A stretch of DNA of 64,000 nt, from the IMG/VR virus record IMGVR_UViG_3300031576_000008, positions 1 through 64,000 of that record; one strand, written 5' to 3'. Source of the DNA: a virus. A program made the translations under genes and the position numbers. The notes below the pieces were generated by a model, which saw only the letters and a list, made by a program, of their open reading frames with translations, was not told where the DNA came from and made no database searches. Below, one piece after another: positions 1 to 35,752 of the stretch (positions within the stretch are counted from its first letter, which is position 1; the number at the start of each line of letters is the position of its first letter).

Positions 1-128
1 TAGCGCTCTGCCTTTGAGCTACGGTGGCCCGAGGTCCATCACGCAGATGGAGCTTGGTGCCACCGGCTGGGATTCGAACCCAGCACCCTCTCGATTATGA
101 ATCGAAGAAACCTCGTTCTGCAGCCCCG
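1..128 (-). ncRNA. Y-RNA (YrlA)-like ncRNA with circularly permuted tRNA domain (3' end runs off window)
   Basis: Minus strand order: GGGGCTGCAG.., CAU anticodon arm, T arm (TTCGAAT), CGGTGGC-ACCA, hairpin linker, then GCCACCG plus D arm. The tRNA 3' half precedes the 5' half. Confidence 0.6.
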
Positions 129-134
129 AATGTT

Positions 135-253
135 TGGTGCGGGCAATAGTGACCAAGGAAATGCCTGCGCGTCACAGGCTTGCGTCTACTGGCGCTTAGC
201 CTTTCGGCCAGCACTCCAGTTCCTAATGAAGTAACCTCGATCGGCAGCCCGCA
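135..253 (-). ncRNA. Y-RNA-like ncRNA (non-tRNA core), CCA-ended
   Basis: Terminal stem TGCGGGC/GCCCGCA+CCA and inner stem GATCGAGG/CCTTGGTC. Shares 5' motif GGGCTGCMG-N2-CG-N-GG-N-TWCTTC with 1-128 and 6905-7028. Confidence 0.5.
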
Positions 254-258
254 ATGTT

Positions 259-334
259 TGGTACCCTCGGCGGGGCTCGAACCCGCATGGGCCTGCTTAG
301 AAGGCAGGTGGCCATCCAATTGGCCGACGAGGGC
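259..334 (-). tRNA. tRNA-Arg(UCU)
   Basis: Cloverleaf, anticodon loop CTTCTAA, CCA. Confidence 0.9.
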
Positions 335-340
335 GAATGT

Positions 341-419
341 TTGCTCCAGAGGCAGGAGTCGAACCTGCGACCTTCCGGTTAACAGCCGGTTGCGGCAAAC
401 CGACAGCCGCCTCTCTGGA
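341..419 (-). tRNA. tRNA-Asn(GUU), atypical D arm, ends CAA
   Basis: TCCAGAG/CTCTGGA acceptor, loop CTGTTAA. Confidence 0.8.
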
Positions 420-420
420 A

Positions 421-494
421 TGGAGCTCACGCCCGGACTTGAACCGGGATCACCGCTTTACGAAAGCGGTAGACTGCCATTGTCCTACGCGAGC
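421..494 (-). tRNA. tRNA-Thr(CGU)
   Basis: Cloverleaf, loop TTCGTAA, CCA. Confidence 0.9.
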
Positions 495-500
495 GAATAT

Positions 501-576
501 TGGAGGGCATGGCGGGTGCCGACCCCGCTCATAGCCGCTTTGCAGGCGGCCGCGTTTGCCGATTCGCCACATGCCC
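501..576 (-). tRNA. tRNA-Cys(GCA), non-canonical T loop
   Basis: Loop CTGCAAA, U73, CCA, T loop GTCGGCA. Confidence 0.85.
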
Positions 577-577
577 A

Positions 578-673
578 TGGCGGAGGAGGCCGGTGCTGCC
601 CCGGCAACGCCCGTTTGTGCGAGCGGCACGTTTAGCAAACGTGTGCGGCCACCTAACTATCCGCGTCTCCTCC
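578..673 (-). tRNA. tRNA-Ser(GCU)
   Basis: Long variable arm, loop TTGCTAA, G73, CCA. Confidence 0.85.
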
Positions 674-1046
674 GTAATCCTTTGGCATAACGCCATTCGC
701 GTGTGCTGGTGTTGTGAGCTTCACGACATGTATCGCACCGACATCCGCAGGTGTACTTGTTTTGCGTACCATGCGGAGCGGCATTCCAGCGATCTTCGGC
801 GGTTTTCTTCTTGTGGCACTTTTTGCAAAGAACTTGACACTTCGCCAGCTCCGCTTCGCGCCGTGCTTTGCTCCATGACCAGACCTTATGATCGACCTTC
901 TTCAACGGGTCGATGTGATCCAGTTGAAGGTCATTCCATGAGCCGCACCGCCGACACGGTCCATGTCGCTGGAACCATTCCTCTCTGCGTCGCTGGAGCC
1001 ATTGTCCCTGATAAGAGCGTTGCCTCGTCTGGTCAGTATATGGCAT
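657..1046 (-). CDS. HNH endonuclease
   Basis: CxxC..LQLDH..CQVLCxxCH motif. Start reassigned to MPYTDQ because the upstream part of the ORF is tRNA. Confidence 0.85.
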   Translation of the reverse strand: MPYTDQTRQRSYQGQWLQRRREEWFQRHGPCRRCGSWNDLQLDHIDPLKKVDHKVWSWSKARREAELAKCQVLCKKCHKKKTAEDRWNAAPHGTQNKYTCGCRCDTCREAHNTSTREWRYAKGLRRRRG

Positions 1047-1081
1047 GCGGTTCATGTACAGCTTTTTCCGCCAGCTGTCAA

Positions 1082-1172
1082 TGGAGGAAGGGGCCGGATT
1101 CGAACCGGCGGAGCTTTTACGCCCTCTCGTTTTCCAAACGAGTACCCGCAGCCAAACCGGGACGTCCCTTCC
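1082..1172 (-). tRNA. tRNA-Ser(GGA)
   Basis: Long variable arm, loop TTGGAAA, CCA. Confidence 0.85.
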
Positions 1173-1198
1173 AGAAGTGCCCAACGCCTCCAAAGTTT

Positions 1199-1283
1199 TG
1201 GCGGAAGCCGGAGTATTCGAAACCCAGCCCGAAGGGCCCATCTGCTTTCAAGGCAGCGCCGTCACCTCGACGGTTCAGCTTCC
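1199..1283 (-). tRNA. tRNA-Ser(UGA)
   Basis: Long variable arm, loop CTTGAAA, CCA. Confidence 0.8.
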
Positions 1284-1585
1284 AGATACTCGACGATCAC
1301 ATCTCCGTGACACTTCTCGGGAGAGCAGAAGCAGCCAAGTGTCTTCCCTCGCAGCGTCTCGATCCGCTGCTTGAATCCTGAGACCGTCTTGAGTCTCTCA
1401 TAGAACCAGATCTTGTACTTCAGGATGACCTCTTCCCGGGTGCCATCCCGGCCGATCCGGAACGGATTGCCGAAGTAGCCGTAGGTAACTTTCTGCGTGA
1501 CCATGCCGGGTTCTACAACTGCTCCCGACCGGCCGATGTAGACGTCGTACTTCTCTTTCTTCACATGCACGACTCGTGTCTTCAT
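1262..1585 (-). CDS. DUF4326-family protein
   Basis: YDVYIGR..GNPF..LRGKTLGCFC..CHGDVI signature. Confidence 0.85.
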   Translation of the reverse strand: MKTRVVHVKKEKYDVYIGRSGAVVEPGMVTQKVTYGYFGNPFRIGRDGTREEVILKYKIWFYERLKTVSGFKQRIETLRGKTLGCFCSPEKCHGDVIVEYLEAEPSR

Positions 1586-1599
1586 GCCTTCTCCAAAGA

Positions 1600-1685
1600 T
1601 GGCGGAAGGTGGGAGATTCGAACTCCCAAGCCAGTGACGGCTCTCGCTTTCGAGACGAGGGGGCTTGCCAATGCCCAAACCTTCC
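1600..1685 (-). tRNA. tRNA-Ser(CGA)
   Basis: Long variable arm, loop CTCGAAA, CCA. Confidence 0.85.
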
Positions 1686-1858
1686 TAGAGCTTCCCGAGT
1701 TCCTCGAGATGCAGCGCCAGATTCTCGAGCTGGCGGACACGTTCGCGGGTGACCTTGAGCTCTTGACCGATCTCGTAGAGGGTCTTCCCCGCTCGTCGCA
1801 GCTTCAAGACGCGCTTCATCCGCCGGCGTGCCTCCGGCGTGATCCTGTCATATGCCAT
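1685..1858 (-). CDS. 57-aa stand-alone sigma-70 region 4 (HTH) protein
   Basis: Manual translation MAYDRITPEARRRMKRVLKLRRAGKTLYEIGQELKVTRERVRQLENLALHLEELGKL. GAGGA RBS. Not in the ORF track. Confidence 0.8.
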   Translation of the reverse strand: MAYDRITPEARRRMKRVLKLRRAGKTLYEIGQELKVTRERVRQLENLALHLEELGKL

Positions 1859-1872
1859 TGAATCCTCAAGAT

Positions 1873-1946
1873 TGGTGCCTGCGGGTGGAGTCGCACCACC
1901 GTCTGCTCCTTATGAGAGAGCCAGTCTGCTGTTGACCTACGCAGGC
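1873..1946 (-). tRNA. tRNA-CAU (elongator Met or Ile2)
   Basis: Loop CTCATAA, fully paired acceptor, CCA. Confidence 0.85.
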
Positions 1947-2323
1947 TTGTAGTTCTTGATCTCTTCCCGGATCCGCGCCTCGACACACTTCTCGGGACCC
2001 TTGCAGCTCCAGCTGCCGCCACACATGACGCAGATGGCGTCGTCAGCTCCGGCGTCGTCTAGAATCTTCAGGAGCTCATTGAGCTTCTTCTTCCAGAAGT
2101 CGCTCGGCGGCTTGTCCATCGGCTCCTTCGGATGGTCGATGATCTCCTGCTCGATCCTGTCGAAGCCGCAGTCCTTATGCGGACCGGACTGCAGGCAGAC
2201 CGGGCATTCGCCCTTCTCATCCATCCGCCGGTAGCAGCCTTCCCGAAGTTCGTAGAGCTTCGTCCTCCAGAAGTCGAATGGGCCCGGTCCAACGAGCTCG
2301 GTCTTGATGAATGGGCTGTCCAT
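1937..2323 (-). CDS. Hypothetical protein with internally duplicated Cys-rich module
   Basis: DFW-x-x-KL..CxxC..C..RI-x-x-EI present twice. GGAGG RBS. Confidence 0.7.
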   Translation of the reverse strand: MDSPFIKTELVGPGPFDFWRTKLYELREGCYRRMDEKGECPVCLQSGPHKDCGFDRIEQEIIDHPKEPMDKPPSDFWKKKLNELLKILDDAGADDAICVMCGGSWSCKGPEKCVEARIREEIKNYKPA

Positions 2324-2340
2324 GATTGCCTCCGAAGATT

Positions 2341-2414
2341 TGGAGCCCTCGGGGAGATTCGCACTCCCATCGCTTGGATACAAGCCAAGCAGACTGCTGT
2401 TGTCCTACGAGGGC
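2341..2414 (-). tRNA. tRNA-Thr(UGU)
   Basis: Loop CTTGTAT, CCA. Confidence 0.85.
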
Positions 2415-2418
2415 TGGA

Positions 2419-2793
2419 TTACCTCGGATGCTCCGCGTGATAGCGAGTCATCCGCACAGCCTGATGCGTCCGACATCTTTCACACCGGCATCCACGATCG
2501 TAGCCACCGCGAGTCCCATGGGTGATCGGACGCCATGCTTCTTGTGCTGTTTTCTCCTTATGGCACTCGGCACAGAGAACCTGACACTTTCGCAATTCCT
2601 CTTCTCTGCGCTTTCGCGACCAAGACCAGATTCGATGATTGACCTTGGTCTTTGGATCTCGATGATCGACTTGAAGATCATTCCAGCTTCCACATAGAAC
2701 ACATGACCCATTTTCTTGGAGCCATGCCGCTCTATTGGAAGCGGCCCTGAGCCGTTGGTACTCACGGTGCTTTGCCGGATCCTTGTAGGGCAT
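2419..2793 (-). CDS. HNH endonuclease (paralog of 657-1046)
   Basis: CVLCGSWNDLQVDH..CQVLCAECH, C-terminal HGT..GCRC. Confidence 0.85.
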   Translation of the reverse strand: MPYKDPAKHREYQRLRAASNRAAWLQENGSCVLCGSWNDLQVDHRDPKTKVNHRIWSWSRKRREEELRKCQVLCAECHKEKTAQEAWRPITHGTRGGYDRGCRCERCRTHQAVRMTRYHAEHPR

Positions 2794-2834
2794 GCTGGGT
2801 TATAGCACAACTTACGGCTCCATAGCCAGAAGAC

Positions 2835-2908
2835 TGGAGCCAACAGCGGGAGTCGAACCCGCGTTTCCGCTTTACCGAAGCGGTGTCTTGCCGTTAGACG
2901 ATGCTGGC
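2835..2908 (-). tRNA. tRNA-Thr(GGU)
   Basis: Loop TCGGTAA (C33), CCA. Confidence 0.85.
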
Positions 2909-2911
2909 GAG

Positions 2912-2985
2912 TGGTCCCCGCTGGCGGAGTTGAACCACCGTCTCGTGCATGTCACGCACGTGTTCTACCGCTGAACTAAGCGGGG
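2912..2985 (-). tRNA. tRNA-Val(GAC)
   Basis: Loop GTGACAT, CCA. Confidence 0.85.
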
Positions 2986-2986
2986 A

Positions 2987-3063
2987 TGGTCAGGGCACCG
3001 AGATTCGAACTCGGACTACCAGTCCCCCAGACTGGCGTGCTAACCATTGAACACTATGCCCTG
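2987..3063 (-). tRNA. tRNA-Pro(GGG)
   Basis: Loop CTGGGGG, C1-G72, CCA. Confidence 0.9.
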
Positions 3064-3221
3064 ATGTTCTTCGGAGGCGGAATCGGGGGGAAGCCCTTGG
3101 GGACCTTGCATACGATGGTCGCCCCGAGGGCCTTGGCGACTTCCTTCGGATCGATGCGCTCGGCTTTCGGGCCGATGTCGACGATCTTCGGATACGTCTT
3201 GCCGGTGTCCTTGATACTCAT
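3054..3221 (-). CDS. 55-aa hypothetical protein
   Basis: MSIKDTGKTYPK...PPPKNIRA*. AAGGA RBS and phage-like codon use. Confidence 0.6.
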   Translation of the reverse strand: MSIKDTGKTYPKIVDIGPKAERIDPKEVAKALGATIVCKVPKGFPPIPPPKNIRA

Positions 3222-3238
3222 GAGAATCCTTTCAGGAT

Positions 3239-3315
3239 TGGGGTAAGCGACGGGGATCGAACCCGCACCTCTTGGGCCACAACCAAGCGTGCAGAACCAC
3301 TACACCACGCCTACC
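3239..3315 (-). tRNA. tRNA-His(GUG) with encoded G-1
   Basis: Loop TTGTGGC, G-1:C73, CCA. Confidence 0.9.
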
Positions 3316-3326
3316 GTGTAAAAGAT

Positions 3327-3400
3327 TGGTGCGCCTCACTGGTTATGCTCCAGTGTCTGGCGGTTATCAGCCGCCTGTTCTTCTATTGAACTAGAGGCGC
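3327..3400 (-). tRNA. tRNA-Ile(GAU), non-canonical T loop
   Basis: Loop CTGATAA, T loop AGCATAA, CCA. Confidence 0.8.
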
Positions 3401-3401
3401 A

Positions 3402-3476
3402 TGGAGCGGCTGAGGGGACTTGAACCCCCACTATCCACCATGGCAAGGTGGTGCCCTACCATTGGGCTACAGCCGC
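3402..3476 (-). tRNA. tRNA-Gly(GCC)
   Basis: Loop TTGCCAT, U73, CCA. Confidence 0.9.
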
Positions 3477-3485
3477 ATGATTTTC

Positions 3486-3559
3486 TAGCTGGGGCAGAAG
3501 GATTCGCACCTTCACAACCGGGTTCAAGGCCCGGTGGGCTACTGTTACCCGATGCCCCA
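3486..3559 (-). tRNA. tRNA-Gln(UUG), ends CUA
   Basis: Loop CCTTGAA, U1-A72, G73. Confidence 0.8.
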
Positions 3560-3560
3560 G

Positions 3561-3648
3561 TGGTGCCGGAGAGAGGAATCGAACCTCCAAGGTCCAAAAG
3601 GACTACGGCTTTACAGGCCGCTGAGCCCACCTCCTGCTCAACTCCGGC
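3561..3648 (-). tRNA. tRNA-Tyr(GUA)
   Basis: Long variable arm, loop CTGTAAA, CCA. Confidence 0.85.
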
Positions 3649-3649
3649 A

Positions 3650-3675
3650 TGAGGAGACGACGGGATTTGCACCGT
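3650..3675 (-). pseudogene. tRNA 3' remnant (T loop plus acceptor strand)
   Basis: CGGTGCAAATCCCGTCGTCTCCTCA without a 5' half. Confidence 0.4.
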
Positions 3676-4172
3676 TAAGATTGGTGGACCGTGCGGGAAC
3701 CGCCCCCGCCTATGCCTGCTTGCAAAGCAGGTGAGACCCTATTGCCTCCCACGGCCCGTTGATGTGTTCTTTCTGCATGACAATTAGCACAAACCACCTC
3801 GCACTTTTTCATCTCTGCGCGGAGCGCTTTCTCTGTGGAGTTCCCGTGAGCAAAGAATGAGACATTTCCCAACTTCGTCCCATTCTCAGGCAAATGATCA
3901 AAGTGCATGACCCATGAAGAATACGACTTTCCGCAGTCAGCGCAGGGTCGTCGCTTCTCTTCATCTGCGATCCGCTGAAATCGTTGTCTTCTCTCCTGAT
4001 TATGAATGACAGATTGCCTGATGTGTTCCGCTCTGCTTCGAGGATTAGAATACCAGCGTTTCCAGTATTTCTGCTGACACTCTCGACAGCAGGAGTTCCT
4101 GCCCTTGCCCTTTCGGCTAAACTCTTTGACGAATTTCTTGCGATCGCATTTGCCGCATCGCTTTTTCTCCAC
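3675..4172 (-). CDS. HNH endonuclease
   Basis: CxxC N-terminus, CADCG..MHFDH..CEVVCANCH. Confidence 0.8.
   Translation of the reverse strand: MEKKRCGKCDRKKFVKEFSRKGKGRNSCCRECQQKYWKRWYSNPRSRAEHIRQSVIHNQERRQRFQRIADEEKRRPCADCGKSYSSWVMHFDHLPENGTKLGNVSFFAHGNSTEKALRAEMKKCEVVCANCHAERTHQRAVGGNRVSPALQAGIGGGGSRTVHQS
3682..3757 (-). tRNA. tRNA-Ala(UGC)
   Basis: G3:U70, loop TTTGCAA, CCA. Lies entirely inside the HNH ORF. Confidence 0.8.
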
Positions 4173-4244
4173 AAGACAAGCATATCATAGAGTTGCAGCC
4201 TTTAATGCGTGCAAGTCACGAATCCTTCTGTTGAACGACAGGCC

Positions 4245-4850
4245 CTAATTGACGATCTCGCACGCTGCGAACTTGACATGCCTCCATTTCTCGTTCAGCT
4301 TGGCCCGGTACTCGCTGTACTTGGATCTCCACACCGTCTCCTTGGAGACGTAGCGGAGCGACAGATGCTTGGCGTCCGCCTGCGGCACAACGATCTTGCA
4401 CTTCTTGACACCAGCCTCGATGCAGAAGTCCTCAACGCAGCAATGGAAGCTGTCGAAGGTCTTGTCATCGAAGCGCAGTCCGCTTTGCCGGCGGAAGAAG
4501 ACCGAACACGAGTCGAGCGTCGAGACTTCGGCGGGGCGTCCCTGCGAGAAGGCGTTCTCCCCCTTGATCGTCCGGCCATGCATGCCGGCAACCGACCCTT
4601 GGATGGCCGCCGCCGCGAAGATCGCGATCGCGCCGGGACCGAAGACCGTGTCGGCGTGGACGATGCCAAGCACGTCGCCGCGCGCATGGTCGATGTAGTA
4701 ATTCCCAATCTTGCCCAGTCCCCCGAAGATGCCGCTTGGGTTGGACACGAGAATCAGCTCATCAACGACTGGAATCACATGCTGGGACTGGAATTCCCCC
4801 AACTCCTTGCTGTTGGCAGCCAGCACGACCAAGCTGATGGTTGGCTTCAT
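4245..4850 (-). CDS. Glycosyltransferase-like protein (GT-A fold)
   Basis: ARGDVLGIVHAD motif, TLD..FDxxTFDSFH. Confidence 0.6.
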   Translation of the reverse strand: MKPTISLVVLAANSKELGEFQSQHVIPVVDELILVSNPSGIFGGLGKIGNYYIDHARGDVLGIVHADTVFGPGAIAIFAAAAIQGSVAGMHGRTIKGENAFSQGRPAEVSTLDSCSVFFRRQSGLRFDDKTFDSFHCCVEDFCIEAGVKKCKIVVPQADAKHLSLRYVSKETVWRSKYSEYRAKLNEKWRHVKFAACEIVN

Positions 4851-4856
4851 AGGTCG

Positions 4857-5582
4857 TCACCGGATGACCGGCCTCGACTTCTTGAGCGCGTCCATGAAGA
4901 CCTTGCGATAAGGATTCGCAGGATCGTTATGGATGCCCCATCCATTCTGCCGATTATCGTCGCTCTGGCGATTCCACCGGCCGGCACGTTTGGTCTCGAG
5001 AAACTCCGGCCCCATGTAATGGTAATGAAGGAGCTTGATGTCGGGTTGCATGCTCTCTTTGACTTTTCCACTGGTCTGGCACTTGTGGCTGCCGGGACCG
5101 AAGGTCACGTCGATGACGGGATTGAAGCACACCCGCTTCGCGTAAAACGCGTCGGGGAATCCCATCTTGCAATGGGTAAAGATGCTGGCATCCCGCTTTG
5201 GGAAGATGGGAGACACCATCTCGTACCCGTCGATCTTGGGGAAGGTGATGCCCCACGCTTTGTATGACTCCAGAAGAGGTGGCAGGCTTGGATAGTGGTA
5301 CAGGAACTCGTCCACATCCACGACCATCACCCAATCGGCCTTGCCACGGGACTCCATCCATGCGGTGTTCCGGATCTCCGTCAGCCGCCTCTCCACGTAC
5401 TTGCCGCCGGTATCGAAGACGATGCGCTTCGTCTTCGGATGGCCATCGATGATCTTTGCGGACTTGTCGGTGCTCTGGTTGTCGTAGATGACGATCTTCT
5501 CGGCGAACGAGCCGTAGTATTGCAGGAAGAAGGGGAGCATCTTCTCCTCGTTCCAGCAGACGGTGTAAACGTGGATGATCAT
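4857..5582 (-). CDS. Glycosyltransferase family 2
   Basis: WNEE..IYDNQSTD..DWVMVVDVDEF..LLHYHY. Confidence 0.85.
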   Translation of the reverse strand: MIIHVYTVCWNEEKMLPFFLQYYGSFAEKIVIYDNQSTDKSAKIIDGHPKTKRIVFDTGGKYVERRLTEIRNTAWMESRGKADWVMVVDVDEFLYHYPSLPPLLESYKAWGITFPKIDGYEMVSPIFPKRDASIFTHCKMGFPDAFYAKRVCFNPVIDVTFGPGSHKCQTSGKVKESMQPDIKLLHYHYMGPEFLETKRAGRWNRQSDDNRQNGWGIHNDPANPYRKVFMDALKKSRPVIR

Positions 5583-6173
5583 CTACTTGATCCACCAGCA
5601 GCATTCGTAGTTGCAGATCTCGATTTTTCTTTCTCCGGCCACTTCGGACACGGCCTTCTGTACGCCATCGGCCCAGAGGTCGTCGCCGACGATCCGCGCC
5701 TTGGGGAAGAGGGACAACGTCATCTCGATGTCGGCGCGGACGGATGCGTACTCGTGGTCGGCGTCGATGTAGACCAGATCCGGCATGATGTTGAGACTGC
5801 GGACCAAGCGGAGTCCCGAAATGGTGTTCATCCGCAGGGGGATGATCTGGTTGCGATATGCCCAGCAGCTTGCCAGAAATGTCTCATACAGGGCCGGGAG
5901 GTGCTTCCTCCACTCCTTGTCCTCGTGGCATGCCGCCGATCCAAGCCAGTGATCGATCGCGATGATGGCGGCCTTCGGCGCGGTCTTGGCAAGGAACCGG
6001 GTGGAGAGCCCAAGCCACGAGCCCAGCTCGACGATGACCTTGAACTTCGGCTTGATGATCGCGGTCAGGACTTCACGGTTGGCGACGCCAAACCAACCGT
6101 GGTTGGATTTTGGCACCAGCGGCGGCTTGGGAGGGAACGAGAATCTCCTCCTTAGTTCTGCTAGACCGTCCAT
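5583..6173 (-). CDS. Class I SAM methyltransferase (Methyltransf_24-like)
   Basis: VELGSWLGLST, DLVYIDADHEY..VGDD. Confidence 0.85.
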   Translation of the reverse strand: MDGLAELRRRFSFPPKPPLVPKSNHGWFGVANREVLTAIIKPKFKVIVELGSWLGLSTRFLAKTAPKAAIIAIDHWLGSAACHEDKEWRKHLPALYETFLASCWAYRNQIIPLRMNTISGLRLVRSLNIMPDLVYIDADHEYASVRADIEMTLSLFPKARIVGDDLWADGVQKAVSEVAGERKIEICNYECCWWIK

Positions 6174-6187
6174 GAAGTTATCTTACA

Positions 6188-6826
6188 ATGCCTTTCATGG
6201 ATAACGTCCTTCCTGCGCTGATCGACCAGCTGACGAAGACGCAGCCCCCGAAGCTTGTCGCCGACGTCGAGGGGATGATCTCCGCCCGGATCCAGACGCT
6301 TCTCAACCGGTGCGTCGCCGCTCTGCCGGCGACGGAGTCGTATCTCGAGATCGGCTGCTGGCAGGGAGCGTCGCTTATCTCCGCGCTCCTTGGCAACACC
6401 AAGGCCACCGCCCTCGCCTGTGACAATTTCGCCCAGTTCACGGAGGCGAATCCTAGGGACAAGTTCAAGGCGAATACCGCCCGGTATGCCGCCCGTCTTC
6501 CCAAGTTCACGTTCCACGAAGGAGACTGCTTCGAGCTCCCGAAGAAGCCGCTCTTCCCCAAGCCCGTCGGCATCTACTTCTACGACGGGGACCATTCGGA
6601 GATCAGCCAGATGCGGGCGCTCACGGAATTTCACACCGTCTTGGCCACGAACGTGGTCGTCATCGTGGACGACTGGAACTGGGACTACGTCCGCCGGGGG
6701 ACGTGGAAGGGCATCGACATCGTAAGGCCTAAGAACGTCTGGTTCCGCGACCTCCCGTCGAAGGGCAACTGCGACCTCGACGGCTTCTGGAATGGCATCG
6801 GCGCGTTCCATCTCGTGCTGCGCTAA
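6188..6826 (+). CDS. Class I SAM methyltransferase (Methyltransf_24-like), possible start 6197
   Basis: YLEIGCWQGAS, FYDGDH..IVDDWNW. Confidence 0.85.
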   Translation: MPFMDNVLPALIDQLTKTQPPKLVADVEGMISARIQTLLNRCVAALPATESYLEIGCWQGASLISALLGNTKATALACDNFAQFTEANPRDKFKANTARYAARLPKFTFHEGDCFELPKKPLFPKPVGIYFYDGDHSEISQMRALTEFHTVLATNVVVIVDDWNWDYVRRGTWKGIDIVRPKNVWFRDLPSKGNCDLDGFWNGIGAFHLVLR

Positions 6827-6827
6827 G

Positions 6828-6901
6828 TGGTGGACCCGAAGGGAATCGAACCCTCATCTGCCGATTGCGAACCGGCTGCTCTCCCGTTGAGCTACGGGCC
6901 C
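6828..6901 (-). tRNA. tRNA-Ala(CGC)
   Basis: G3:U70, loop TTCGCAA, CCA. Confidence 0.9.
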
Positions 6902-6904
6902 ATA

Positions 6905-7028
6905 TGGGGCAATTGTCGGTCACGGCCATTTAACGTGCTGCCATTACACCACGGCACCTTGCGGCACCGCCGGGACTCGAACCCGGACCTTTTCATTATG
7001 AGTGAAGTAGCCGCGACCTGCAGCCCCG
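6905..7028 (-). ncRNA. Y-RNA (YrlA)-like ncRNA with circularly permuted tRNA domain
   Basis: GGGGC/GCCCC and GGTCGCGGC/GCCGTGACC stems enclose a CAU arm, a T arm, an acceptor stem closed by a GCAA tetraloop, and then a D arm. Confidence 0.7.
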
Positions 7029-7034
7029 AATGTT

Positions 7035-7108
7035 TGGTGGACGCGGCGAGAGTCGCACTCGCAACTGCAGAATGCCATTCTGCTGTGATCCTGCTTCACC
7101 ACGCGCCC
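7035..7108 (-). tRNA. tRNA-Ala(GGC)
   Basis: G3:U70, loop ATGGCAT, CCA. Confidence 0.85.
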
Positions 7109-7169
7109 TATTGAACACCTGCCCGGGAGTTGCGATCCAGAGACCGCATTCAGCGGGCAGGGAGGAATT

Positions 7170-7244
7170 TGGTGGACGGTACAGGAATTGAACCTGTTCC
7201 TCCCGGTCTTCAGCCGGGCGCTCGACCATGTAAGCTAACCGTCC
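7170..7244 (-). tRNA. tRNA-Phe(GAA)
   Basis: Loop CTGAAGA, CCA. Confidence 0.9.
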
Positions 7245-7245
7245 G

Positions 7246-7322
7246 TGGTAGCGTAGGGTGGGAGTCAAACCCACTAGCTCCGGCTTATGAGACCGGCGAG
7301 GTCGTCGTGCCTCTCCCTCGCA
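7246..7322 (-). tRNA. tRNA-Met(CAU), initiator-like, atypical
   Basis: Loop CTCATAA, 1:72 mismatch, bulged acceptor. Confidence 0.65.
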
Positions 7323-7326
7323 AGAT

Positions 7327-7400
7327 TGGTAGCGGGCTACCGAGTCGCACGGTCACTCCAAGGTTATGAGCCTCGGCGAGGCACTCGCCTCAAACCCGCA
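7327..7400 (-). tRNA. tRNA-Met(CAU), initiator-like
   Basis: Loop CTCATAA, U1:U72 mismatch, CCA. Confidence 0.7.
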
Positions 7401-7409
7401 TCGTAATTT

Positions 7410-7483
7410 TGGCTGCCCCGGGAGGACTCGAACCTCCATCGCCTGATTCAGAGTCAGGAATGCTACCGTTACACCACAAGGCA
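7410..7483 (-). tRNA. tRNA-Gln(CUG)
   Basis: Loop CTCTGAA, CCA. Confidence 0.9.
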
Positions 7484-7486
7484 GAA

Positions 7487-7600
7487 TGGAGATGGAGGTC
7501 CCAAAGTGTCGGCTTTCGCCGCCGGTCTTTCTACTGCGATGCCTATCGCGATTCGGCACTGCGCGGGAACAGGCGACCGGACTACCACGACTCCATCTCC
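7487..7600 (-). ncRNA. Unknown structured ncRNA, CCA-ended
   Basis: 10-bp terminal stem GGAGATGGAG/CTCCATCTCC, inner CCGGTC/GACCGG, CGGC-GAAA-GCCG hairpin. Confidence 0.5.
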
Positions 7601-7606
7601 GAAGAT

Positions 7607-7685
7607 TGGCAGCGGTGACGGGACTCGCACCCGCTCTATCTCCTCGTTGACAACGAGGCGGCTCGTCTACTTTGCCATCACCGCT
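7607..7685 (-). tRNA. tRNA-Asp(GUC)
   Basis: Loop TTGTCAA, G73, CCA. Confidence 0.8.
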
Positions 7686-7690
7686 ATAAA

Positions 7691-7765
7691 TGGCAGGTCG
7701 TGCAGGGGTCGAACCCGCGCCTTCCGCTCTGGAGGCGGACGTGCTACCAGTAACACCTACGACCT
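7691..7765 (-). tRNA. tRNA-Trp(CCA)
   Basis: Loop CTCCAGA, G73, CCA. Confidence 0.85.
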
Positions 7766-7768
7766 GAA

Positions 7769-7876
7769 TGGGCCGCACCCTCCCGGATGCAGCCCCTGCA
7801 TCGCCTGCGGATGACGGGTTGTCGGCCGACCTTCAGCGAAGCTGCATGGTCTGCGCCTATCCGTCTTCTCCGGCCC
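7769..7876 (-). ncRNA. Unknown structured ncRNA, CCA-ended
   Basis: GGGCCG/CGGCCC-A terminal stem, GACC..CAGC-TTCG-CTG..GGTC arm, GATGCAG/CTGCATC hairpin. Confidence 0.4.
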
Positions 7877-7954
7877 TCGAACGAATCCTTGGGGATGGTT
7901 ACCCTATGTCCCTCATCGGGCGATTCGATCCTATTGAGGACCTATGGCGAGTAT

Positions 7955-8029
7955 TGGTGCGGGCGACCGGTAACGCTCCGGTTCTTCAACCTTGGGAAAG
8001 TCGCGTGCTAACTTTCACACTCCGCCCGC
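7955..8029 (-). tRNA. tRNA-Gly(CCC), atypical
   Basis: Loop TTCCCAA, T loop AGCGTTA, CCA. Confidence 0.75.
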
Positions 8030-8526
8030 TTGAGCCACTTCTTTACGGCGTTAAAGGATACGCCGAATTCTTTGGCGACATGATTGACGTTGGATTCAGC
8101 CACCATTCGCAGAAGCTCCGTTTTCGACGGGCGGATCGCTTTCCGCTGCCCAAGAGCGGTGCATTTTCTAGAACAGTACTGATTGTATCTACGCCTGATG
8201 ATGGAGAGCTTCCGATGGATTGCGGAACCGCATACTGCGCACTTCACTTCAATGGAGGCATGCCCAAGCTGATGCTGATGATGCATGGAATGCTCTCTAT
8301 TCGTGAGGAGCTTGAGATTTGCCGGACGGTTGTCCCTTTTGTTGTGGTTCTTATGGTGAACCACCTCATCCGGCAGCAAGTGCCTGCCAATCATGTCCTC
8401 CATCACCAGCCGATGTTCGTAGAACTTCTTGCCTTTGTTGTCAAAGTAGAAGAAGTAGCCCTCATTGACGTAAGGGCCACGACCTGCTCTAGACCATTGA
8501 CTACGAATCTTTTCGAGTGCATCCAT
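8008..8526 (-). CDS. HNH homing endonuclease (HNH_3) with C-terminal Zn ribbon and HTH
   Basis: YEHRLVME..VVHHKNHNKRDNRPANL. Confidence 0.9.
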   Translation of the reverse strand: MDALEKIRSQWSRAGRGPYVNEGYFFYFDNKGKKFYEHRLVMEDMIGRHLLPDEVVHHKNHNKRDNRPANLKLLTNREHSMHHQHQLGHASIEVKCAVCGSAIHRKLSIIRRRYNQYCSRKCTALGQRKAIRPSKTELLRMVAESNVNHVAKEFGVSFNAVKKWLKRAECES

Positions 8527-8600
8527 GGACCGGGTAGCGGGAATTGAACCCGCCCTTGAACTGTGGAAAAGTTCCGTGCTTGCCACCACACTCTACCCGG
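8526..8600 (-). tRNA. tRNA-Gly(UCC), atypical
   Basis: Loop TTTCCAC, U73, CCA. Confidence 0.7.
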
Positions 8601-9109: not shown

Positions 9110-9523
9110 TTATTCAAGCTTGAGATTGAGCGCTTCCTTCAGCTGCTCGAGCACTTTCGGCGGGGTCACGTGATGGTATTCGCGACTGTGCTCATCGATG
9201 TTGTCGATCGCCAAGGCAAGCGCATCAGTCTTGGCCTTGATGACCTCCCGGGCGCGCTCAAGCAGCTTCTCGACATGCTTGGCCACCATCGGGCGCGCCA
9301 GCTCCAGATGCTCGGGGCGCACGCAAAGCTTGTTGCCGCAGGTGGCGCTCACGACCGTGCGCGGGGGAATGGGACCCTTGACGATCTCCCATGACGCACG
9401 GCGCGGATAGGTCGATCTTTCGCCCCAGCGAAGCGAACCGTATCCGTTCTTCCCAACGGGGCCGGTCCAGTTCCAGCAGGTATCGGTCTTCTCGACACGC
9501 TTCCAGAATTCGTCGGCATTCAT
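9110..9523 (-). CDS. HNH-endonuclease-like protein (degenerate)
   Basis: FWKRVEKTDTCWNWTG..GYG..CGNKLCVRPEHL. Expected catalytic His absent. Confidence 0.7.
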   Translation of the reverse strand: MNADEFWKRVEKTDTCWNWTGPVGKNGYGSLRWGERSTYPRRASWEIVKGPIPPRTVVSATCGNKLCVRPEHLELARPMVAKHVEKLLERAREVIKAKTDALALAIDNIDEHSREYHHVTPPKVLEQLKEALNLKLE

Positions 9524-9537
9524 GGTTTCTCCCAATG

Positions 9538-9570
9538 AAAAGGCCGGGACAGCAGAACCCTGTCCCGGCC
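9538..9570 (-). terminator. Intrinsic terminator
   Basis: GGCCGGGACAG..CTGTCCCGGCC-TTTT. Confidence 0.65.
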
Positions 9571-9615
9571 ATCCGACTGGCCGCTTGCCCAGCGACCGTC
9601 TCTTACCCGGCTTCA

Positions 9616-10134
9616 TCATGCCTCATCGGGCTTGGGAGTCAAGTCCAAGACCCGGCGGGCCAGCGCGGCCACGAAGCGCCATGTCGGCGGCTCCGTGTCG
9701 CGCCAAGGAGCCGGCACGATAGTCGTGTATCGGGACTTGGCAGTCGGATCAACCTCGACCAGTCCACATTCGATCGGCACGTCCTCGCGCTTGATGATGC
9801 CCGGCGGAGCGGCAAAGTAGTACTCGTTCGACAGCCGGAGCGCCGGCCGGCGCTTGTTGGGCTTCCGGAGCTCACGCTGGAAGTCCTCGCGGCTCACCTT
9901 GATCTCGTAGGACCTCCGGAACATCTTCGACGGATGCGGATGGATGACCCAGAGGTCGATCCATCCCTCCCCGTCCTTGCCGAAGCCGGTGCCGATCCGG
10001 AGATTCGGCAGGAGCAGGCAATGGGCGAATTGGTAGTGGTCGAGCAGGAGGGTCAGGACTTCATTGGAAGTCATGGGCATCTCTTTGGTCGCTGGGGGTG
10101 AATGGTCACTCCCTCCATACGGCTCGCTGTTCAC
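9616..10134 (-). CDS. MmcB-like PD-(D/E)xK nuclease
   Basis: IDLW..YEIKVSREDF..EYYFAAPPGII..CGL. Confidence 0.75.
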   Translation of the reverse strand: MNSEPYGGSDHSPPATKEMPMTSNEVLTLLLDHYQFAHCLLLPNLRIGTGFGKDGEGWIDLWVIHPHPSKMFRRSYEIKVSREDFQRELRKPNKRRPALRLSNEYYFAAPPGIIKREDVPIECGLVEVDPTAKSRYTTIVPAPWRDTEPPTWRFVAALARRVLDLTPKPDEA

Positions 10135-33726: not shown

Positions 33727-35343
33727 TTATTGCCAGCGGGTCGGAATGTGCGCATCGAGATCGGTGCCATTGCGCTTCGCATTCTTGCATGGCTTACAGT
33801 ACTTTGGCGTCCTGAAGTCGCCGAACTTCTCGAACAGCCACTGCTTCTCCCCCTTGGTGAACACGAAGTTCGTCCCGCACTCGAAGCAGACGCAGCTCTC
33901 GTCTTCCAGAGACCCGCGCATCTGGATCGCGATCTTCCGATAGGGGACGTCGCCAAGCGCAGACCACGCGAGCCCGTCCCATTCCTCTGAAGTGAAGATC
34001 CCCTTCGGGAGTGGCTTGGAGGGGAGGCCCGCCTTCTTGAGGCGGTCGCAGATTTCCTGTTGGGCAACAGCATCCCAAAGACGGCCCGGCATGAGACTCT
34101 TCTGCAGCTTGAGCTGATCGGGCATGAGTTCGCATCTCTCGATCTTGCCGAGGACCTTCTTGAGGCTCTCCTCAGGCGACGAGACCGTAGAGGGCTGTTG
34201 TGCTCCATTCGATAGCGGCGTCACGGACTTCTGGACCAATGCTGGAGCCAGCCCAGCAAGGGGCACGTAATCGGTCGACAGCTTCTCGACAATGGACGGC
34301 TTGTGCTCAGGCTTGGGTTCGGGCGCGGAAGCCGGCTTCGGTGCTTCCTTTGCCGCAGGCTTCAGCTCGGCCTTCTTGGGAGCTTCCGGTGTAGTTGTAA
34401 GTTGAGGATTGATAGGTGTCAGCTGAATTGAGGGGTCACGCTCAATCACCCAGCCTTGGTTTTCCACCTCCTTGATGATCTTGAGCTCGATGGCGTTCTT
34501 CACCATCACCATCGCATACGTGCGGCTGGGAGGCTTGCCATCCAGCGTGAAGAATTCCTTGTACTTCTGAAGCTCCCCGGCAATCCCCCATTTGGAAGAG
34601 TGTGGCCCGGGATGCAAGCCGGCGATGAAAAGCGTCATCTTCGTCGCCTGCGACTCCTTCCGGGCCGGAGGCTTTGGAGCGGCTTCGGCATCGACCTTGT
34701 AGTCGGAGCCGGCCGCCAGACGCTTCCATGTCGTGCCGACGGTGTTGGCGAGGACGCCCTTGACCTTGAGCTCATCCGAGGCGATGAGCTTCGCCAGTGC
34801 CTGCTCCGAGATCGACAGCTCCTCGGCAAGGATGGGGAAAAGTTCAACCTGATCGAGTTTCTCATCAGGCAGCATAAGCGACTTCACGACCTCAATCAGG
34901 CGCTTGCCGTAGTTGGCCCAGAGATCTTCGACCGTCCAATCATCCGGAGAGTCCTTCTGGGACGGCGACTGGACTTCAGTCTTGGGCTTCTCGACCTCGG
35001 TCTCCTCGGCTTCTTCGACCTTCTCCGTCAGGTACGGATCGATGCGTTCCTTGAACTTGTTCTTGTCGTTGGAGTGTTTGATGAGTCCGGCAAGGATGTA
35101 GTTTCCTGTTTTGGATTGAATGAGTGGTAGTTTTCGCTTTTGGGCTATGTCCTGCGCAATTCGCCATGCAGGCCTGCCCAACCATCGCGTCAGCGCCACG
35201 ATGACCTCGACGTCGGGGGCAACGCTCGTCGGGAACGTCTCCCTTGTAGAGGGCACGTGGACGTAATCGATCGCCTCACGCACCACCTTGGGGATGTTCC
35301 GACGTTCGTCACCTCCAACGATGAGAGCCCGGATCTTTTGCAT
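33727..35343 (-). CDS. Multidomain protein: DUF2325-like N-terminus, zf-trcl-like Zn ribbon C-terminus
   Basis: ALIVGG..VIV..LPLIQ and CFECG..FVFTKGE..PKYCKPC. Confidence 0.7.
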   Translation of the reverse strand: MQKIRALIVGGDERRNIPKVVREAIDYVHVPSTRETFPTSVAPDVEVIVALTRWLGRPAWRIAQDIAQKRKLPLIQSKTGNYILAGLIKHSNDKNKFKERIDPYLTEKVEEAEETEVEKPKTEVQSPSQKDSPDDWTVEDLWANYGKRLIEVVKSLMLPDEKLDQVELFPILAEELSISEQALAKLIASDELKVKGVLANTVGTTWKRLAAGSDYKVDAEAAPKPPARKESQATKMTLFIAGLHPGPHSSKWGIAGELQKYKEFFTLDGKPPSRTYAMVMVKNAIELKIIKEVENQGWVIERDPSIQLTPINPQLTTTPEAPKKAELKPAAKEAPKPASAPEPKPEHKPSIVEKLSTDYVPLAGLAPALVQKSVTPLSNGAQQPSTVSSPEESLKKVLGKIERCELMPDQLKLQKSLMPGRLWDAVAQQEICDRLKKAGLPSKPLPKGIFTSEEWDGLAWSALGDVPYRKIAIQMRGSLEDESCVCFECGTNFVFTKGEKQWLFEKFGDFRTPKYCKPCKNAKRNGTDLDAHIPTRWQ

Positions 35344-35635: not shown

Positions 35636-35752
35636 GGTTCCCTCAGGTTAACACCTCGCGCGTTGGAGGTCTGCGCCTCCACCCAGCACAGGCACGGAAA
35701 GGTTAGTAACCCCACCAGCGCAAGGCCGCGCGAGGCGCGCTCATTCTAGACA

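What the first reader, a model, noticed from the sequence alone, without database searches (positions are those of the whole stretch)
1..253. Three-member ncRNA family: constant stem, swappable cargo domains
Seen: elements 1-128, 135-253 and 6905-7028 begin CGGGGCTGCAGAACGAGGTTTCTTC, GCGGGCTGCCGATCGAGGTTACTTC and CGGGGCTGCAGGTCGCGGCTACTTC. Each follows a CCA-AACATT spacer. The two complete copies show compensatory changes in the stem. The cargo differs: a permuted CAU tRNA with encoded ACCA and hairpin linker, a non-tRNA multi-hairpin core with 3' CCA, and a tetraloop-closed tRNA mimic. Inference: a modular adaptor system in which one protein binds the stem and different effectors bind the cargo. 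The first copy could alternatively be matured into a true permuted tRNA.
Basis: partly seen in the sequence, partly recalled or inferred. Interest (0 to 1): 0.7.

Follow-up and report, generated by a model that had tools for sequence, protein, structure and literature searches.

The report
Phage Y RNAs inside tRNA array
The three elements are phage-encoded Y RNAs: small RNAs that share one conserved two-helix "handle" of the kind bound by the ring protein Ro60 and carry different inner modules (two sealed or nicked tRNA look-alikes, one other fold). This is a divergent, multi-copy version of a known RNA class, not a new kind of system.

Summary
On the minus strand, E1 (128→1, cut by the contig end), E2 (252→138, then CCA) and E3 (7028→6904) share a handle: a 6-bp outer stem, a UGC/AAUU internal loop, an 8-bp inner stem GNNCGAGG/CCUUGNNC, and UUACUUC.

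- **Independent detection:** a covariance model built only from relatives finds exactly these three in the 64-kb window (73.7, 56.6 and 40.5 bits).
- **Covariation:** both helices covary across 21 copies. 93.5% of cells pair, against about 48% in slid controls.
- **Identity:** they are YrlA/YrlB-type Y RNAs. Rfam YrlA aligns end to end (29.3 bits to E3, 54.1 to E1's complete homologue). The published 5' motif and the following YUAY are present.
- **Link to Ro60:** in every related contig with flank, arrays of 2 to 12 copies lie directly upstream of a Ro60 (TROVE+vWA) gene. Five of these contigs were fetched by protein alone.
- **Gap in this window:** this contig has no Ro60 gene. Synteny places it just beyond base 1.

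The true-permuted-tRNA alternative is unlikely.

What differs from canonical YrlA is a full anticodon-arm mimic, E1's internal ACCA plus spacer, and paralogue arrays.

This scan has noted similar arrays on other DNA.

The parts
1..128 (-). E1: Y RNA with a permuted tRNA-like module, cut off at its 3' end by the contig end. The inner-stem and outer-stem 3' strands are missing.
   Evidence: R2 gives 40.5 bits and flags a 3' cut. R1 gives 37.9 bits. The window starts at base 1 of the contig.
123..128 (-). E1 outer-stem 5' strand (CGGGGC)
   Evidence: Read from the sequence. Aligned in model R2.
111..118 (-). E1 inner-stem 5' strand GAACGAGG, the Ro60-site-like motif. It is followed by UUUC, which corresponds to the YUAY of YrlA.
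   Evidence: Motif as described in Chen 2014.
90..106 (-). E1 anticodon-arm mimic: UUCGA-UUCAUAA-UCGAG, a 5-bp stem with a 7-nt loop carrying CAU.
67..83 (-). E1 T arm: CUGGG-UUCGAAU-CCCAG
55..65 (-). E1 acceptor 3' strand CGGUGGC followed by an encoded ACCA
29..54 (-). E1 linker with a 6-bp hairpin, lying between the two acceptor strands
5..28 (-). E1 acceptor 5' strand GCCACCG, then UA, then the D arm GCUC-AAAGGCA-GAGC
   Evidence: The Rfam tRNA model aligns positions 1-28 of its consensus here. Parsed.
135..252 (-). E2: Y RNA with a non-tRNA module (YrlB-like). The handle closes as GCGGGC/GCCCGC, followed by A and CCA (137-135).
   Evidence: R2 gives 56.6 bits. Fold. Orthologous module found in two other phages.
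235..242 (-). E2 inner-stem 5' strand GAUCGAGG, pairing with 151-158 (CCUUGGUC)
6904..7028 (-). E3: complete Y RNA with a tetraloop-sealed permuted tRNA mimic
   Evidence: R2 gives 73.7 bits. Rfam YrlA model positions 1-114 align at 29.3 bits, E 6.4e-5. Fold z-score is -3.8.
7011..7018 (-). E3 inner-stem 5' strand GGUCGCGG, pairing with 6918-6925 (CCGUGACC)
6992..7006 (-). E3 anticodon-arm mimic: UUCA-CUCAUAA-UGAA
6935..6986 (-). E3 T arm (6970-6986), 7-bp acceptor-like stem sealed by GCAA (6952-6969), UG, and D arm (6935-6949)

Best explanation
E1, E2 and E3 are phage-encoded Y RNAs of the YrlA (E1, E3) and YrlB-like (E2) kind.

Shown:
- Each is a small RNA whose 5' and 3' ends pair into a conserved, covarying two-helix handle. 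The handle has a 6-bp outer stem, an internal loop (5' UGCN, 3' NNNAAUU), and an 8-bp inner stem GNNCGAGG/CCUUGNNC with an invariant G.U pair. It is followed by UUACUUC.
- The handle encloses a variable module.

Inferred:
- They are transcribed with the tRNA array. The same AACAUU spacer and U at -1 suggest they are cut out like tRNAs, with RNase P acting at the acceptor-like outer stem.
- The handle is bound by a phage Ro60 (TROVE+vWA) protein. Its gene most probably lies just beyond the left end of this contig.
- As in other Ro60-Y RNA particles, the RNA would gate the Ro60 ring and tether it through the module to a partner. For E1 and E3 the partner would be a tRNA-binding factor that reads the elbow and/or the anticodon-arm mimic. 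E2 would have a different partner.
- E1's inner acceptor stem (7 bp, A73, encoded CCA, spacer hairpin) is probably nicked by RNase P, as in M. smegmatis YrlA. That would give a two-piece RNA with a free CCA end.
- The architecture fits the published idea that YrlA arose from a dimeric tRNA transcript. E1 still keeps the CCA and the inter-tRNA spacer.
For: 1. Family reality. 21 copies in three phage contigs share the handle. 93.5% of cells pair against 46-51% in slid controls, 8 of 14 pairs show double changes, and there are 40 compensatory cells. The leave-window-out model R2 recovers exactly the three elements.

2. Homology to YrlA. Rfam RF02553 aligns over its full length to E3 (29.3 bits, E 6.4e-5). 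It also aligns to E1's complete homologue at L005:1029-1166 (54.1 bits, E 1.6e-9). The published mycobacteriophage ET08 YrlA scores only 37.4 bits in the same search. The alignment matches handle to handle (AUGC loop, CUAC, AAcUUG), T arm, sealed acceptor and D arm.

3. Published defining motifs. Chen 2014 describes a 5' GNCGAAN0-1G motif resembling the metazoan Ro60 site GGUCCGA, followed by YUAY. Here these are GNNCGAGG and UUAC.

4. Gene neighbourhood. The two viral relatives encode TROVE+vWA_Ro60 proteins with the arrays upstream on the same strand. Five metagenome loci were fetched by Ro60 protein similarity only, and all have R1 arrays ending 50-100 nt before the Ro60 start.

5. Synteny. 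In G001 the order is Cys, Thr(cgt), Asn, Y, Y, ORF, methyltransferase, Ro60. In the window it is Cys, Thr(cgt), Asn, Arg, E2, E1, contig end.

6. A tRNA-like fold. All arms are present. T-loop UUC goes with D-loop GG (6 copies), and T-loop UGC goes with D-loop AG (5 copies), with no exception.

7. Precedent for E1. M. smegmatis YrlA has a 7-bp acceptor stem, is cut by RNase P, and carries CCA in vivo.
Against: - No TROVE gene is present in the 106 kb held for this phage, which is estimated 65% complete. The Ro60 link for this genome therefore rests on synteny.
- All Rfam YrlA scores are below the family's gathering score of 69 bits.
- The inner-stem motif differs from the published consensus by one base (CGAGG, not CGAAG) and lacks the bulged C of animal Y RNAs.
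- All Ro60-linked relatives belong to one phage clade, so the co-occurrence is few independent events.
- R1 does not detect the handle of ET08 beyond 11 bits, and finds nothing in Myxococcus phage Mx1.
- No binding, expression or processing data exist.
Confidence: 0.8

Rival explanations
1. E1, and possibly others, is a genuine permuted or split tRNA-Met/Ile gene. Processing, with or without circularisation, would yield a decoding tRNA, and the handle would be only a processing scaffold that is removed.
For: Rotating E1's cargo gives a default-threshold ARAGORN tRNA-Met(cat). E1 has a perfect 7-bp acceptor stem, A73, an encoded CCA and a canonical anticodon loop. If RNase P and 3' trimming acted, a two-piece tRNA body held together by the handle would result.
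Against: - E1's homologues G1_1164 and M92_634 seal the same stem with a 5-nt loop and have no CCA. E3 and others use GNRA tetraloops.
- The handle is the most conserved part of the family and is kept in copies with no tRNA body.
- No RtcB ligase is in the contig, and bacteria have no splicing endonuclease of the kind used for permuted tRNAs in algae (general knowledge).
- The array already has a canonical tRNA-Met (1873-1946).
Confidence: 0.05
2. The elements use the same conserved handle but work with a protein other than Ro60, or with none. For example, they could be RNase P/tRNA-processing decoys or stable structural by-products of the tRNA operon. Their position next to Ro60 in relatives would then be operon hitch-hiking.
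For: This contig has three copies and no Ro60 gene. Several copies lie kilobases from Ro60 among tRNAs, such as E3 and the L006:5557-6427 cluster. The outer stem plus A, and sometimes CCA, looks like an acceptor minihelix.
Against: There is full-length homology to YrlA, including the handle. The Ro60-site-like motif is the invariant core. In all seven Ro60 loci of the clade the densest array abuts the Ro60 start codon.
Confidence: 0.1
3. The elements are decaying remnants of tandem tRNA genes (pseudogenes) with no function of their own.
For: The Rfam tRNA model hits the first 66 nt of E3 at 31.6 bits. ARAGORN at relaxed settings calls the same region tRNA-Met. The array also holds other odd CAU tRNA-like genes.
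Against: - Compensatory changes maintain both handle helices.
- The E2 module is conserved with covariation in three phages.
- D-loop and T-loop changes are coordinated.
- The modules are not recent copies of the phage's own tRNAs.
Confidence: 0.03

Closest known systems
YrlA-type bacterial and phage Y RNAs with Rsr/Ro60 (Rfam RF02553; Chen et al. 2014, PMC4201824; structure preprint 10.1101/312249)
   Same: - The terminal stem formed by the 5' and 3' ends has an internal loop and a 5'-strand motif (GNCGAAN0-1G there, GNNCGAGG here), followed by YUAY.
- The module order is permuted in the same way: (V hairpin), T arm, sealed acceptor-like stem, U8-type dinucleotide, D arm.
- The genes lie upstream of, and co-oriented with, a TROVE+vWA gene in relatives, and the phage setting is within or near tRNA genes.
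- The Rfam model aligns end to end.
   Different: - Scores are below the Rfam gathering threshold.
- Canonical YrlA is described as lacking an anticodon loop and a CCA end (10.1101/312249). Here most tRNA-type copies carry a 5-bp/7-nt anticodon-arm mimic with U33 and a purine at position 37. The triplets are CAU, GCA, CUU, UCC and UUU, followed by a 4-6-nt variable loop.
- The outer stem looks like an acceptor stem followed by A, and by CCA in E2.
- There are 3 to 12 paralogues per genome with swapped modules, against one or two.
Mycobacterium smegmatis YrlA/YrlB (Chen et al. 2014)
   Same: E1 has a 7-bp acceptor-like stem that is not simply sealed. The M. smegmatis RNA is cut there by RNase P and carries CCA in vivo, giving two Ro60-bound halves. 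YrlB is a second Y RNA with the same 5' motif but a different module, processed from the same precursor. This parallels E2 lying next to E1.
   Different: In E1 the CCA is encoded and a hairpin spacer follows it. Cleavage and CCA status are untested here. The handle sequence differs.
Mycobacteriophage ET08 and other phage Y RNAs (Chen 2014; Thermus phage phiLo Yrl1/Yrl2, PMC12135203)
   Same: These are phage Ro60 genes with Y-like RNAs immediately upstream. By eye, ET08 has three tandem units with a shared handle at L011:3520-3880. phiLo has two units that bind its Ro60 and host PNPase in vitro.
   Different: There is no detectable DNA similarity. R1 gives only 11 bits on ET08. The Ro60 proteins are 22-28% identical.
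Permuted tRNA genes of Cyanidioschyzon merolae and split tRNAs of archaea (from general knowledge, not tested here)
   Same: The 3' half of a tRNA body is encoded upstream of the 5' half.
   Different: Those are matured by the splicing endonuclease and a ligase into decoding tRNAs, and their flanks form bulge-helix-bulge motifs. Here the acceptor is usually sealed, and the flanks form a conserved Y RNA handle that is retained.

Membership tests
YrlA / bacterial-phage Y RNA (RF02553) | Terminal stem formed by the 5' and 3' ends, with an internal loop | tested here: met
   The outer 6-bp and inner 8-bp helices pair in 93.5% of cells, and 8 of 14 pairs covary. The Rfam alignment matches helix to helix.
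YrlA / bacterial-phage Y RNA (RF02553) | 5'-strand motif GNCGAAN0-1G (the Ro60 site), followed by YUAY | tested here: inconclusive
   The motif here is G-N-N-C-G-A-G-G, or CGCGG in E3, which is one base off the published consensus. YUAY is present as UUAC, CUAC or AUAC in nearly all copies; E1 has UUUC (Chen 2014).
YrlA / bacterial-phage Y RNA (RF02553) | tRNA-like module in the order T arm, sealed acceptor-like stem, D arm, with elbow nucleotides | tested here: met
   Met in E1 and E3 and nine relatives. The T-loop/D-loop pairs UUC/GG and UGC/AG are correlated 6:5. Not met in E2, which is YrlB-like.
YrlA / bacterial-phage Y RNA (RF02553) | Rfam curated gathering score of 69 bits | tested here: not met
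   E3 scores 29.3 bits, E1 13.4 (partial) and G1_1164 54.1. The published ET08 YrlA scores 37.4 in the same kind of search, so the threshold also excludes accepted phage members.
YrlA / bacterial-phage Y RNA (RF02553) | Encoded within about 4 kb of, and co-oriented with, a Ro60 (TROVE) gene | tested here: inconclusive
   Not met in the 106 kb held for this phage. Met in all seven related contigs with flank. Synteny puts the gene beyond base 1.
YrlA / bacterial-phage Y RNA (RF02553) | Physical binding to Ro60/Rsr | not testable with these tools
   Needs EMSA or RIP.
Functional tRNA (permuted gene) | Free 5' and 3'-CCA acceptor ends and a continuous D-stem/anticodon-stem junction after maturation | tested here: not met
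   E3 and most relatives have a sealed acceptor. The junction is occupied by the conserved handle with 8-12-nt linkers. Only E1 has an openable acceptor with CCA.
tmRNA (standard or two-piece) | Tag reading frame, pseudoknots, and a match to a tmRNA model | tested here: not met
   Rfam tmRNA_permuted gives 7.3 bits. ARAGORN gives only spurious relaxed-threshold calls. A real tmRNA exists in relative G002 at L006:3523-3882.

The most novel reading that the evidence does not exclude
These phage Y RNAs are complete four-arm tRNA decoys mounted on a Ro60 handle. Each paralogue would display a specific anticodon arm (CAU, GCA, CUU, UCC, UUU) and so capture or present a particular anticodon-reading factor to the Ro60 particle. 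Candidates include host anticodon nucleases or other tRNA-targeting defence enzymes, a synthetase, or a modification enzyme. E1, after RNase P nicking, would be a two-piece, CCA-ended and possibly aminoacylatable Met-type mimic tethered to Ro60. On this reading the paralogue arrays are a programmable panel of tRNA baits. E1 would be a surviving intermediate of the proposed dimeric-tRNA origin of Y RNAs.
Probability: 0.15. Interest if true: 0.8.

Novelty: new variant of a known kind. Interest (0 to 1): 0.45.

Why it matters
Bacterial and phage Y RNAs are known, but what their tRNA-like modules bind is still open.

This clade offers a natural panel. One handle is combined with many modules: up to 12 per genome and three in this window. 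Several modules keep a canonical anticodon-arm mimic, which canonical YrlA lacks. One module (E1) still has the CCA and the spacer of a tRNA dimer. The clade therefore provides comparative material for three questions:
- which features Ro60 reads;
- which partners the modules recruit;
- how Y RNAs arose from tRNAs.

Practically, these genes are mis-called as tRNAs by ARAGORN (E3 at relaxed settings; its relative at L090:2673-2745 at default settings) and by the Rfam tRNA model on E3. They also fall below the Rfam YrlA threshold, so they go unannotated in phage genomes.

Tried and rejected
- **tmRNA or two-piece tmRNA.** I considered this because of the GGGGCUG start. There was no model match, no tag frame and no pseudoknots.
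- **tRNA with an intron.** ARAGORN intron modes give only noise at very relaxed thresholds.
- **Extending the contig to the left.** This is impossible, because the window starts at base 1 of the record.
- **TROVE and RtcB in the own contig.** Neither is present.
- **BLASTN against GenBank phages.** E1+E2 and the G002 array both gave no match. The 1-1100 query matched only an HNH gene and tRNAs.
- **A looser DNA pattern in viral contigs.** It returned 74 extra single-hit loci. None matched model R1, so they are chance matches.
- **Ro60-based search of viral contigs.** It returned only the same two contigs.
- **R1 on Myxococcus phage Mx1 and mycobacteriophage ET08.** It found nothing with default filters, and 11 bits on the ET08 YrlA with filters off.
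- **Recent-copy origin of the modules.** I tested whether the E1 and E3 modules are recent copies of the phage's own tRNAs. They are not.
- **ARAGORN on rotated cargos.** Only E1 gives a clean tRNA. In the others the 8-12-nt linker spoils the call.
- **Two review papers.** Neither was held in the library.

Full report
**Setting**

The window is bases 1-64000 of a 105,993-bp IMG/VR viral contig that CheckV estimates to be about 65% complete. Base 1 is the contig end. Bases 1-8600 hold a dense minus-strand tRNA array: 22 ARAGORN calls at default settings, and more at relaxed settings or by Rfam. HNH endonuclease, glycosyltransferase and methyltransferase ORFs are interspersed.

**The observation**

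- E1 runs 128→1.
- E2 runs 252→138 and is then followed by CCA.
- E3 runs 7028→6904.

The shared pattern occurs three times without mismatch. Shuffles give 0.51 expected matches even with up to three mismatches allowed. E2 and E3 fold with their ends paired into two stacked helices, with z-scores of -3.0 and -3.8. E1 cannot close because its 3' part lies beyond the contig end.

**A real family**

The exact pattern recurs in two other viral contigs: G001 (137 kb) and G002 (266 kb, 92% complete). A motif scan found 18 full-length copies there.

In the 21-sequence alignment A1 the handle reads as follows:
- a 6-bp outer stem;
- 5' UGCN;
- the 8-bp inner stem GNNCGAGG/CCUUGNNC;
- UUACUUC, then the cargo;
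- the inner 3' strand, then NNN-AAUU;
- the outer 3' strand, then A.

The pair counts support both helices:
- 93.5% of cells pair, against 46-51% when the partner is slid by 1-3 columns.
- 8 of 14 pairs have changes on both sides, giving 40 compensatory cells.
- The fifth inner-stem pair is G.U in 20 of 21 copies.

Model R1, built from A1, finds 3, 7 and 11 copies in the three genomes and none elsewhere in this contig. Model R2, built from 23 relatives with no window sequence, finds exactly E3 (73.7 bits), E2 (56.6) and E1 (40.5, flagged as 3'-truncated) in the whole window.

**What the elements are**

In a focused search, Rfam YrlA (RF02553, "Y RNA-like") aligns over its full length, positions 1-114, to E3 at 29.3 bits and E 6.4e-5. 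The alignment matches:
- outer stem to outer stem;
- the AUGC loop to CUGC;
- inner stem to inner stem;
- CUAc to CUAC;
- the T arm, the sealed acceptor-like stem and the D arm;
- AaAcUuG to ACAAUUG.

E1's complete homologue in G001 (L005:1029-1166) scores 54.1 bits, E 1.6e-9, over the full length. Two G002 copies score about 30 bits. The published YrlA of mycobacteriophage ET08 scores only 37.4 bits in the same search. All are below the curated 69-bit cut-off, but that cut-off evidently excludes accepted phage members too.

Chen et al. 2014 (PMC4201824) define YrlA by four features:
- a 5' GNCGAAN0-1G motif that resembles the GGUCCGA contacted by Xenopus Ro60;
- a following YUAY;
- an optional V stem-loop;
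- then a T arm, an acceptor-like stem-loop and a D arm.

They report such RNAs within 4 kb of, and co-oriented with, Ro60 in 254 bacteria and 22 phages. The handle here has GNNCGAGG followed by UUAC, and the same module order.

**The Ro60 link**

This contig has no TROVE gene and no RtcB gene. Both viral relatives do have TROVE genes, and their proteins carry TROVE plus the Ro60-type vWA domain.
- In G002, eight units in tandem (L006:11096-12142) end 50 nt before the Ro60 start codon.
- In G001, the last two units lie upstream of Ro60 on the same strand, separated from it by an unknown ORF and a SAM methyltransferase.

As an independent test I fetched metagenome loci by Ro60 protein similarity alone. 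All five with upstream flank carry R1 arrays that abut the Ro60 gene on the same strand.

Synteny with G001 supports a Ro60 gene just off this contig. G001 reads Cys, Thr(cgt), Asn, Y, Y..., Ro60. The window reads Cys, Thr(cgt), Asn, Arg, E2, E1, contig end. The Ro60 gene of this phage therefore most probably lies just left of base 1. This is inference.

**The modules**

E1, E3 and nine relatives share one plan:
- a hairpin with a 5-bp stem (4 bp in E3) and a 7-nt loop that has U at the second position and a purine after the triplet; the triplets are CAU three times, GCA, CUU, UCC and UUU;
- a 4-6-nt variable loop;
- a T arm;
- a 6-8-bp acceptor-like stem;
- a U8-type dinucleotide;
- a D arm;
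- an 8-12-nt linker back to the handle.

The acceptor-like stem is sealed by GNRA in E3 and others. It is sealed by ACUAC or ACUGC in E1's homologues. In E1 it is interrupted by ACCA plus a hairpin spacer.

T loops reading UUC go with D loops containing GG (6 copies), and T loops reading UGC go with D loops containing AG (5 copies), without exception. This is what a conserved elbow contact would predict, although the 5 copies represent about three paralogue lineages.

E1's cargo, once rotated, is called tRNA-Met(cat) by ARAGORN at default settings. The modules are not recent copies of the phage's own tRNAs.

E2's module is different. It has a bent hairpin capped by GAAA and a second hairpin. 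This module is conserved, with two covarying pairs, in G002 and in metagenome contig L090, both times within the array next to Ro60. The pairing of a tRNA-type unit with a non-tRNA unit that shares the handle parallels YrlA/YrlB in Salmonella and M. smegmatis.

**How it probably works**

Shown here:
- the handle, its covariation, and its homology to YrlA;
- the constant neighbourhood with Ro60 in the clade.

Established for the class:
- Ro60 binds the terminal stem, mainly its 5' strand.
- The module tethers partners such as PNPase (Chen 2014; 10.1101/312249). For a phage, phiLo Ro60 binds two upstream Y-like RNAs and host PNPase in vitro (PMC12135203).

Inferred for this locus:
- co-transcription with the tRNAs;
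- release by the tRNA-processing enzymes, given the shared AACAUU spacer, U at -1, the acceptor-like outer stem and the following A;
- binding by the phage Ro60;
- recruitment of tRNA-binding factors by E1 and E3, and of another partner by E2.

M. smegmatis YrlA has a 7-bp acceptor stem, is cut by RNase P and carries CCA in vivo. That makes the same fate likely for E1, which would become a nicked two-piece RNA.

The 3'-terminal CCA of E2 is not conserved in its orthologues. It is probably not essential.

**Comparison with what is known, and novelty**

The class is known, including in phages.

The differences from canonical YrlA are as follows:
- Canonical YrlA is described as lacking an anticodon loop and a free CCA. 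Here an anticodon-arm mimic is present in most copies.
- The outer stem is acceptor-like.
- E1 has an internal CCA plus a spacer.
- There are 3-12 paralogues with swapped modules.

E1 looks like the intermediate predicted by the dimeric-tRNA origin model quoted in 10.1101/312249. In that model the 5' part derives from tRNA 1 and the 3' part from tRNA 2. Consistent with this, the Rfam tRNA model hits the first 66 nt of E3 at 31.6 bits.

I found no paper describing such arrays in the held library. Two reviews could not be read. By eye, ET08 also has three tandem units, so multiplicity as such is not unique to this clade. Earlier notes of this scan report similar handle-plus-tRNA-mimic arrays beside Ro60-like genes on other DNA. 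I did not test those.

**Verdict**

The elements are a divergent, multi-copy variant of a known RNA class. Interest is moderate.

Noticed in passing
window 7251-7322 and 7331-7399 (minus strand): Two further CAU-anticodon tRNA-like genes with aberrant D regions. ARAGORN finds them only at relaxed thresholds, and Rfam tRNA gives 23.8 bits on the first. With 1873-1946, E1 and E3, the array holds five CAU-bearing units.
   Followed up: partly
window 7035-7108, 3682-3757, 1199-1283, 7959-8032 (minus strand): tRNA genes missed by default ARAGORN but found at relaxed settings: Ala-ggc, Ala-tgc, Ser-tga and Gly-ccc. Ala-ggc scores 53.5 bits with the Rfam tRNA model.
   Followed up: partly
window 6961-7027 (minus strand); L090:2673-2745: The 5' two-thirds of tRNA-type Y RNAs are mis-called as tRNAs. 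For E3, Rfam tRNA gives 31.6 bits (above gathering) and ARAGORN gives tRNA-Met at relaxed settings. For a relative, ARAGORN gives tRNA-Lys(ctt) at default settings. This is an annotation pitfall.
   Followed up: yes
window 335-342, 129-134, 253-258, 7029-7034 (minus strand): The spacer AACAUU (AAAAAUU or AAUAUU in relatives) precedes both true tRNAs and Y RNAs, always leaving U at -1. It may be a shared processing signal.
   Followed up: no
window 657-1241, 2419-2793, 9110-9619 (minus strand): HNH endonuclease ORFs are interspersed in the tRNA array. The first shares about 71% DNA identity over roughly 135-160 nt with HNH genes of cluster C mycobacteriophages.
   Followed up: partly
window 5583-6173 (minus strand); L087:5192-5923: A Methyltransf_24 SAM methyltransferase lies inside the array near E3. 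A protein with the same domain sits directly upstream of Ro60 in relative G001. It could be an RNA methyltransferase partner.
   Followed up: no
L006:3523-3882: Relative G002 encodes a standard tmRNA (Rfam 116 bits) at the head of its tRNA array.
   Followed up: no
L011:3520-3880 (Mycobacterium phage ET08): By eye there are three tandem Y-like units upstream of the Ro-like gene. They share GCCGA..., CGGUUAYC and a 3' CAUGUCU element. Rfam recognises only the middle one (37.4 bits).
   Followed up: partly
window 34003-34082 (+) and 35657-35740 (-): Isolated ARAGORN calls (tRNA-Lys ctt and tRNA-Ser act) lie far from the array. I did not check them.
   Followed up: no
L006:6300-6427: One G002 unit appears to carry its tRNA-like parts in the opposite order: D arm, a tetraloop-capped stem, then T arm. 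This resembles the Yrn1 orientation rather than the YrlA one.
   Followed up: no
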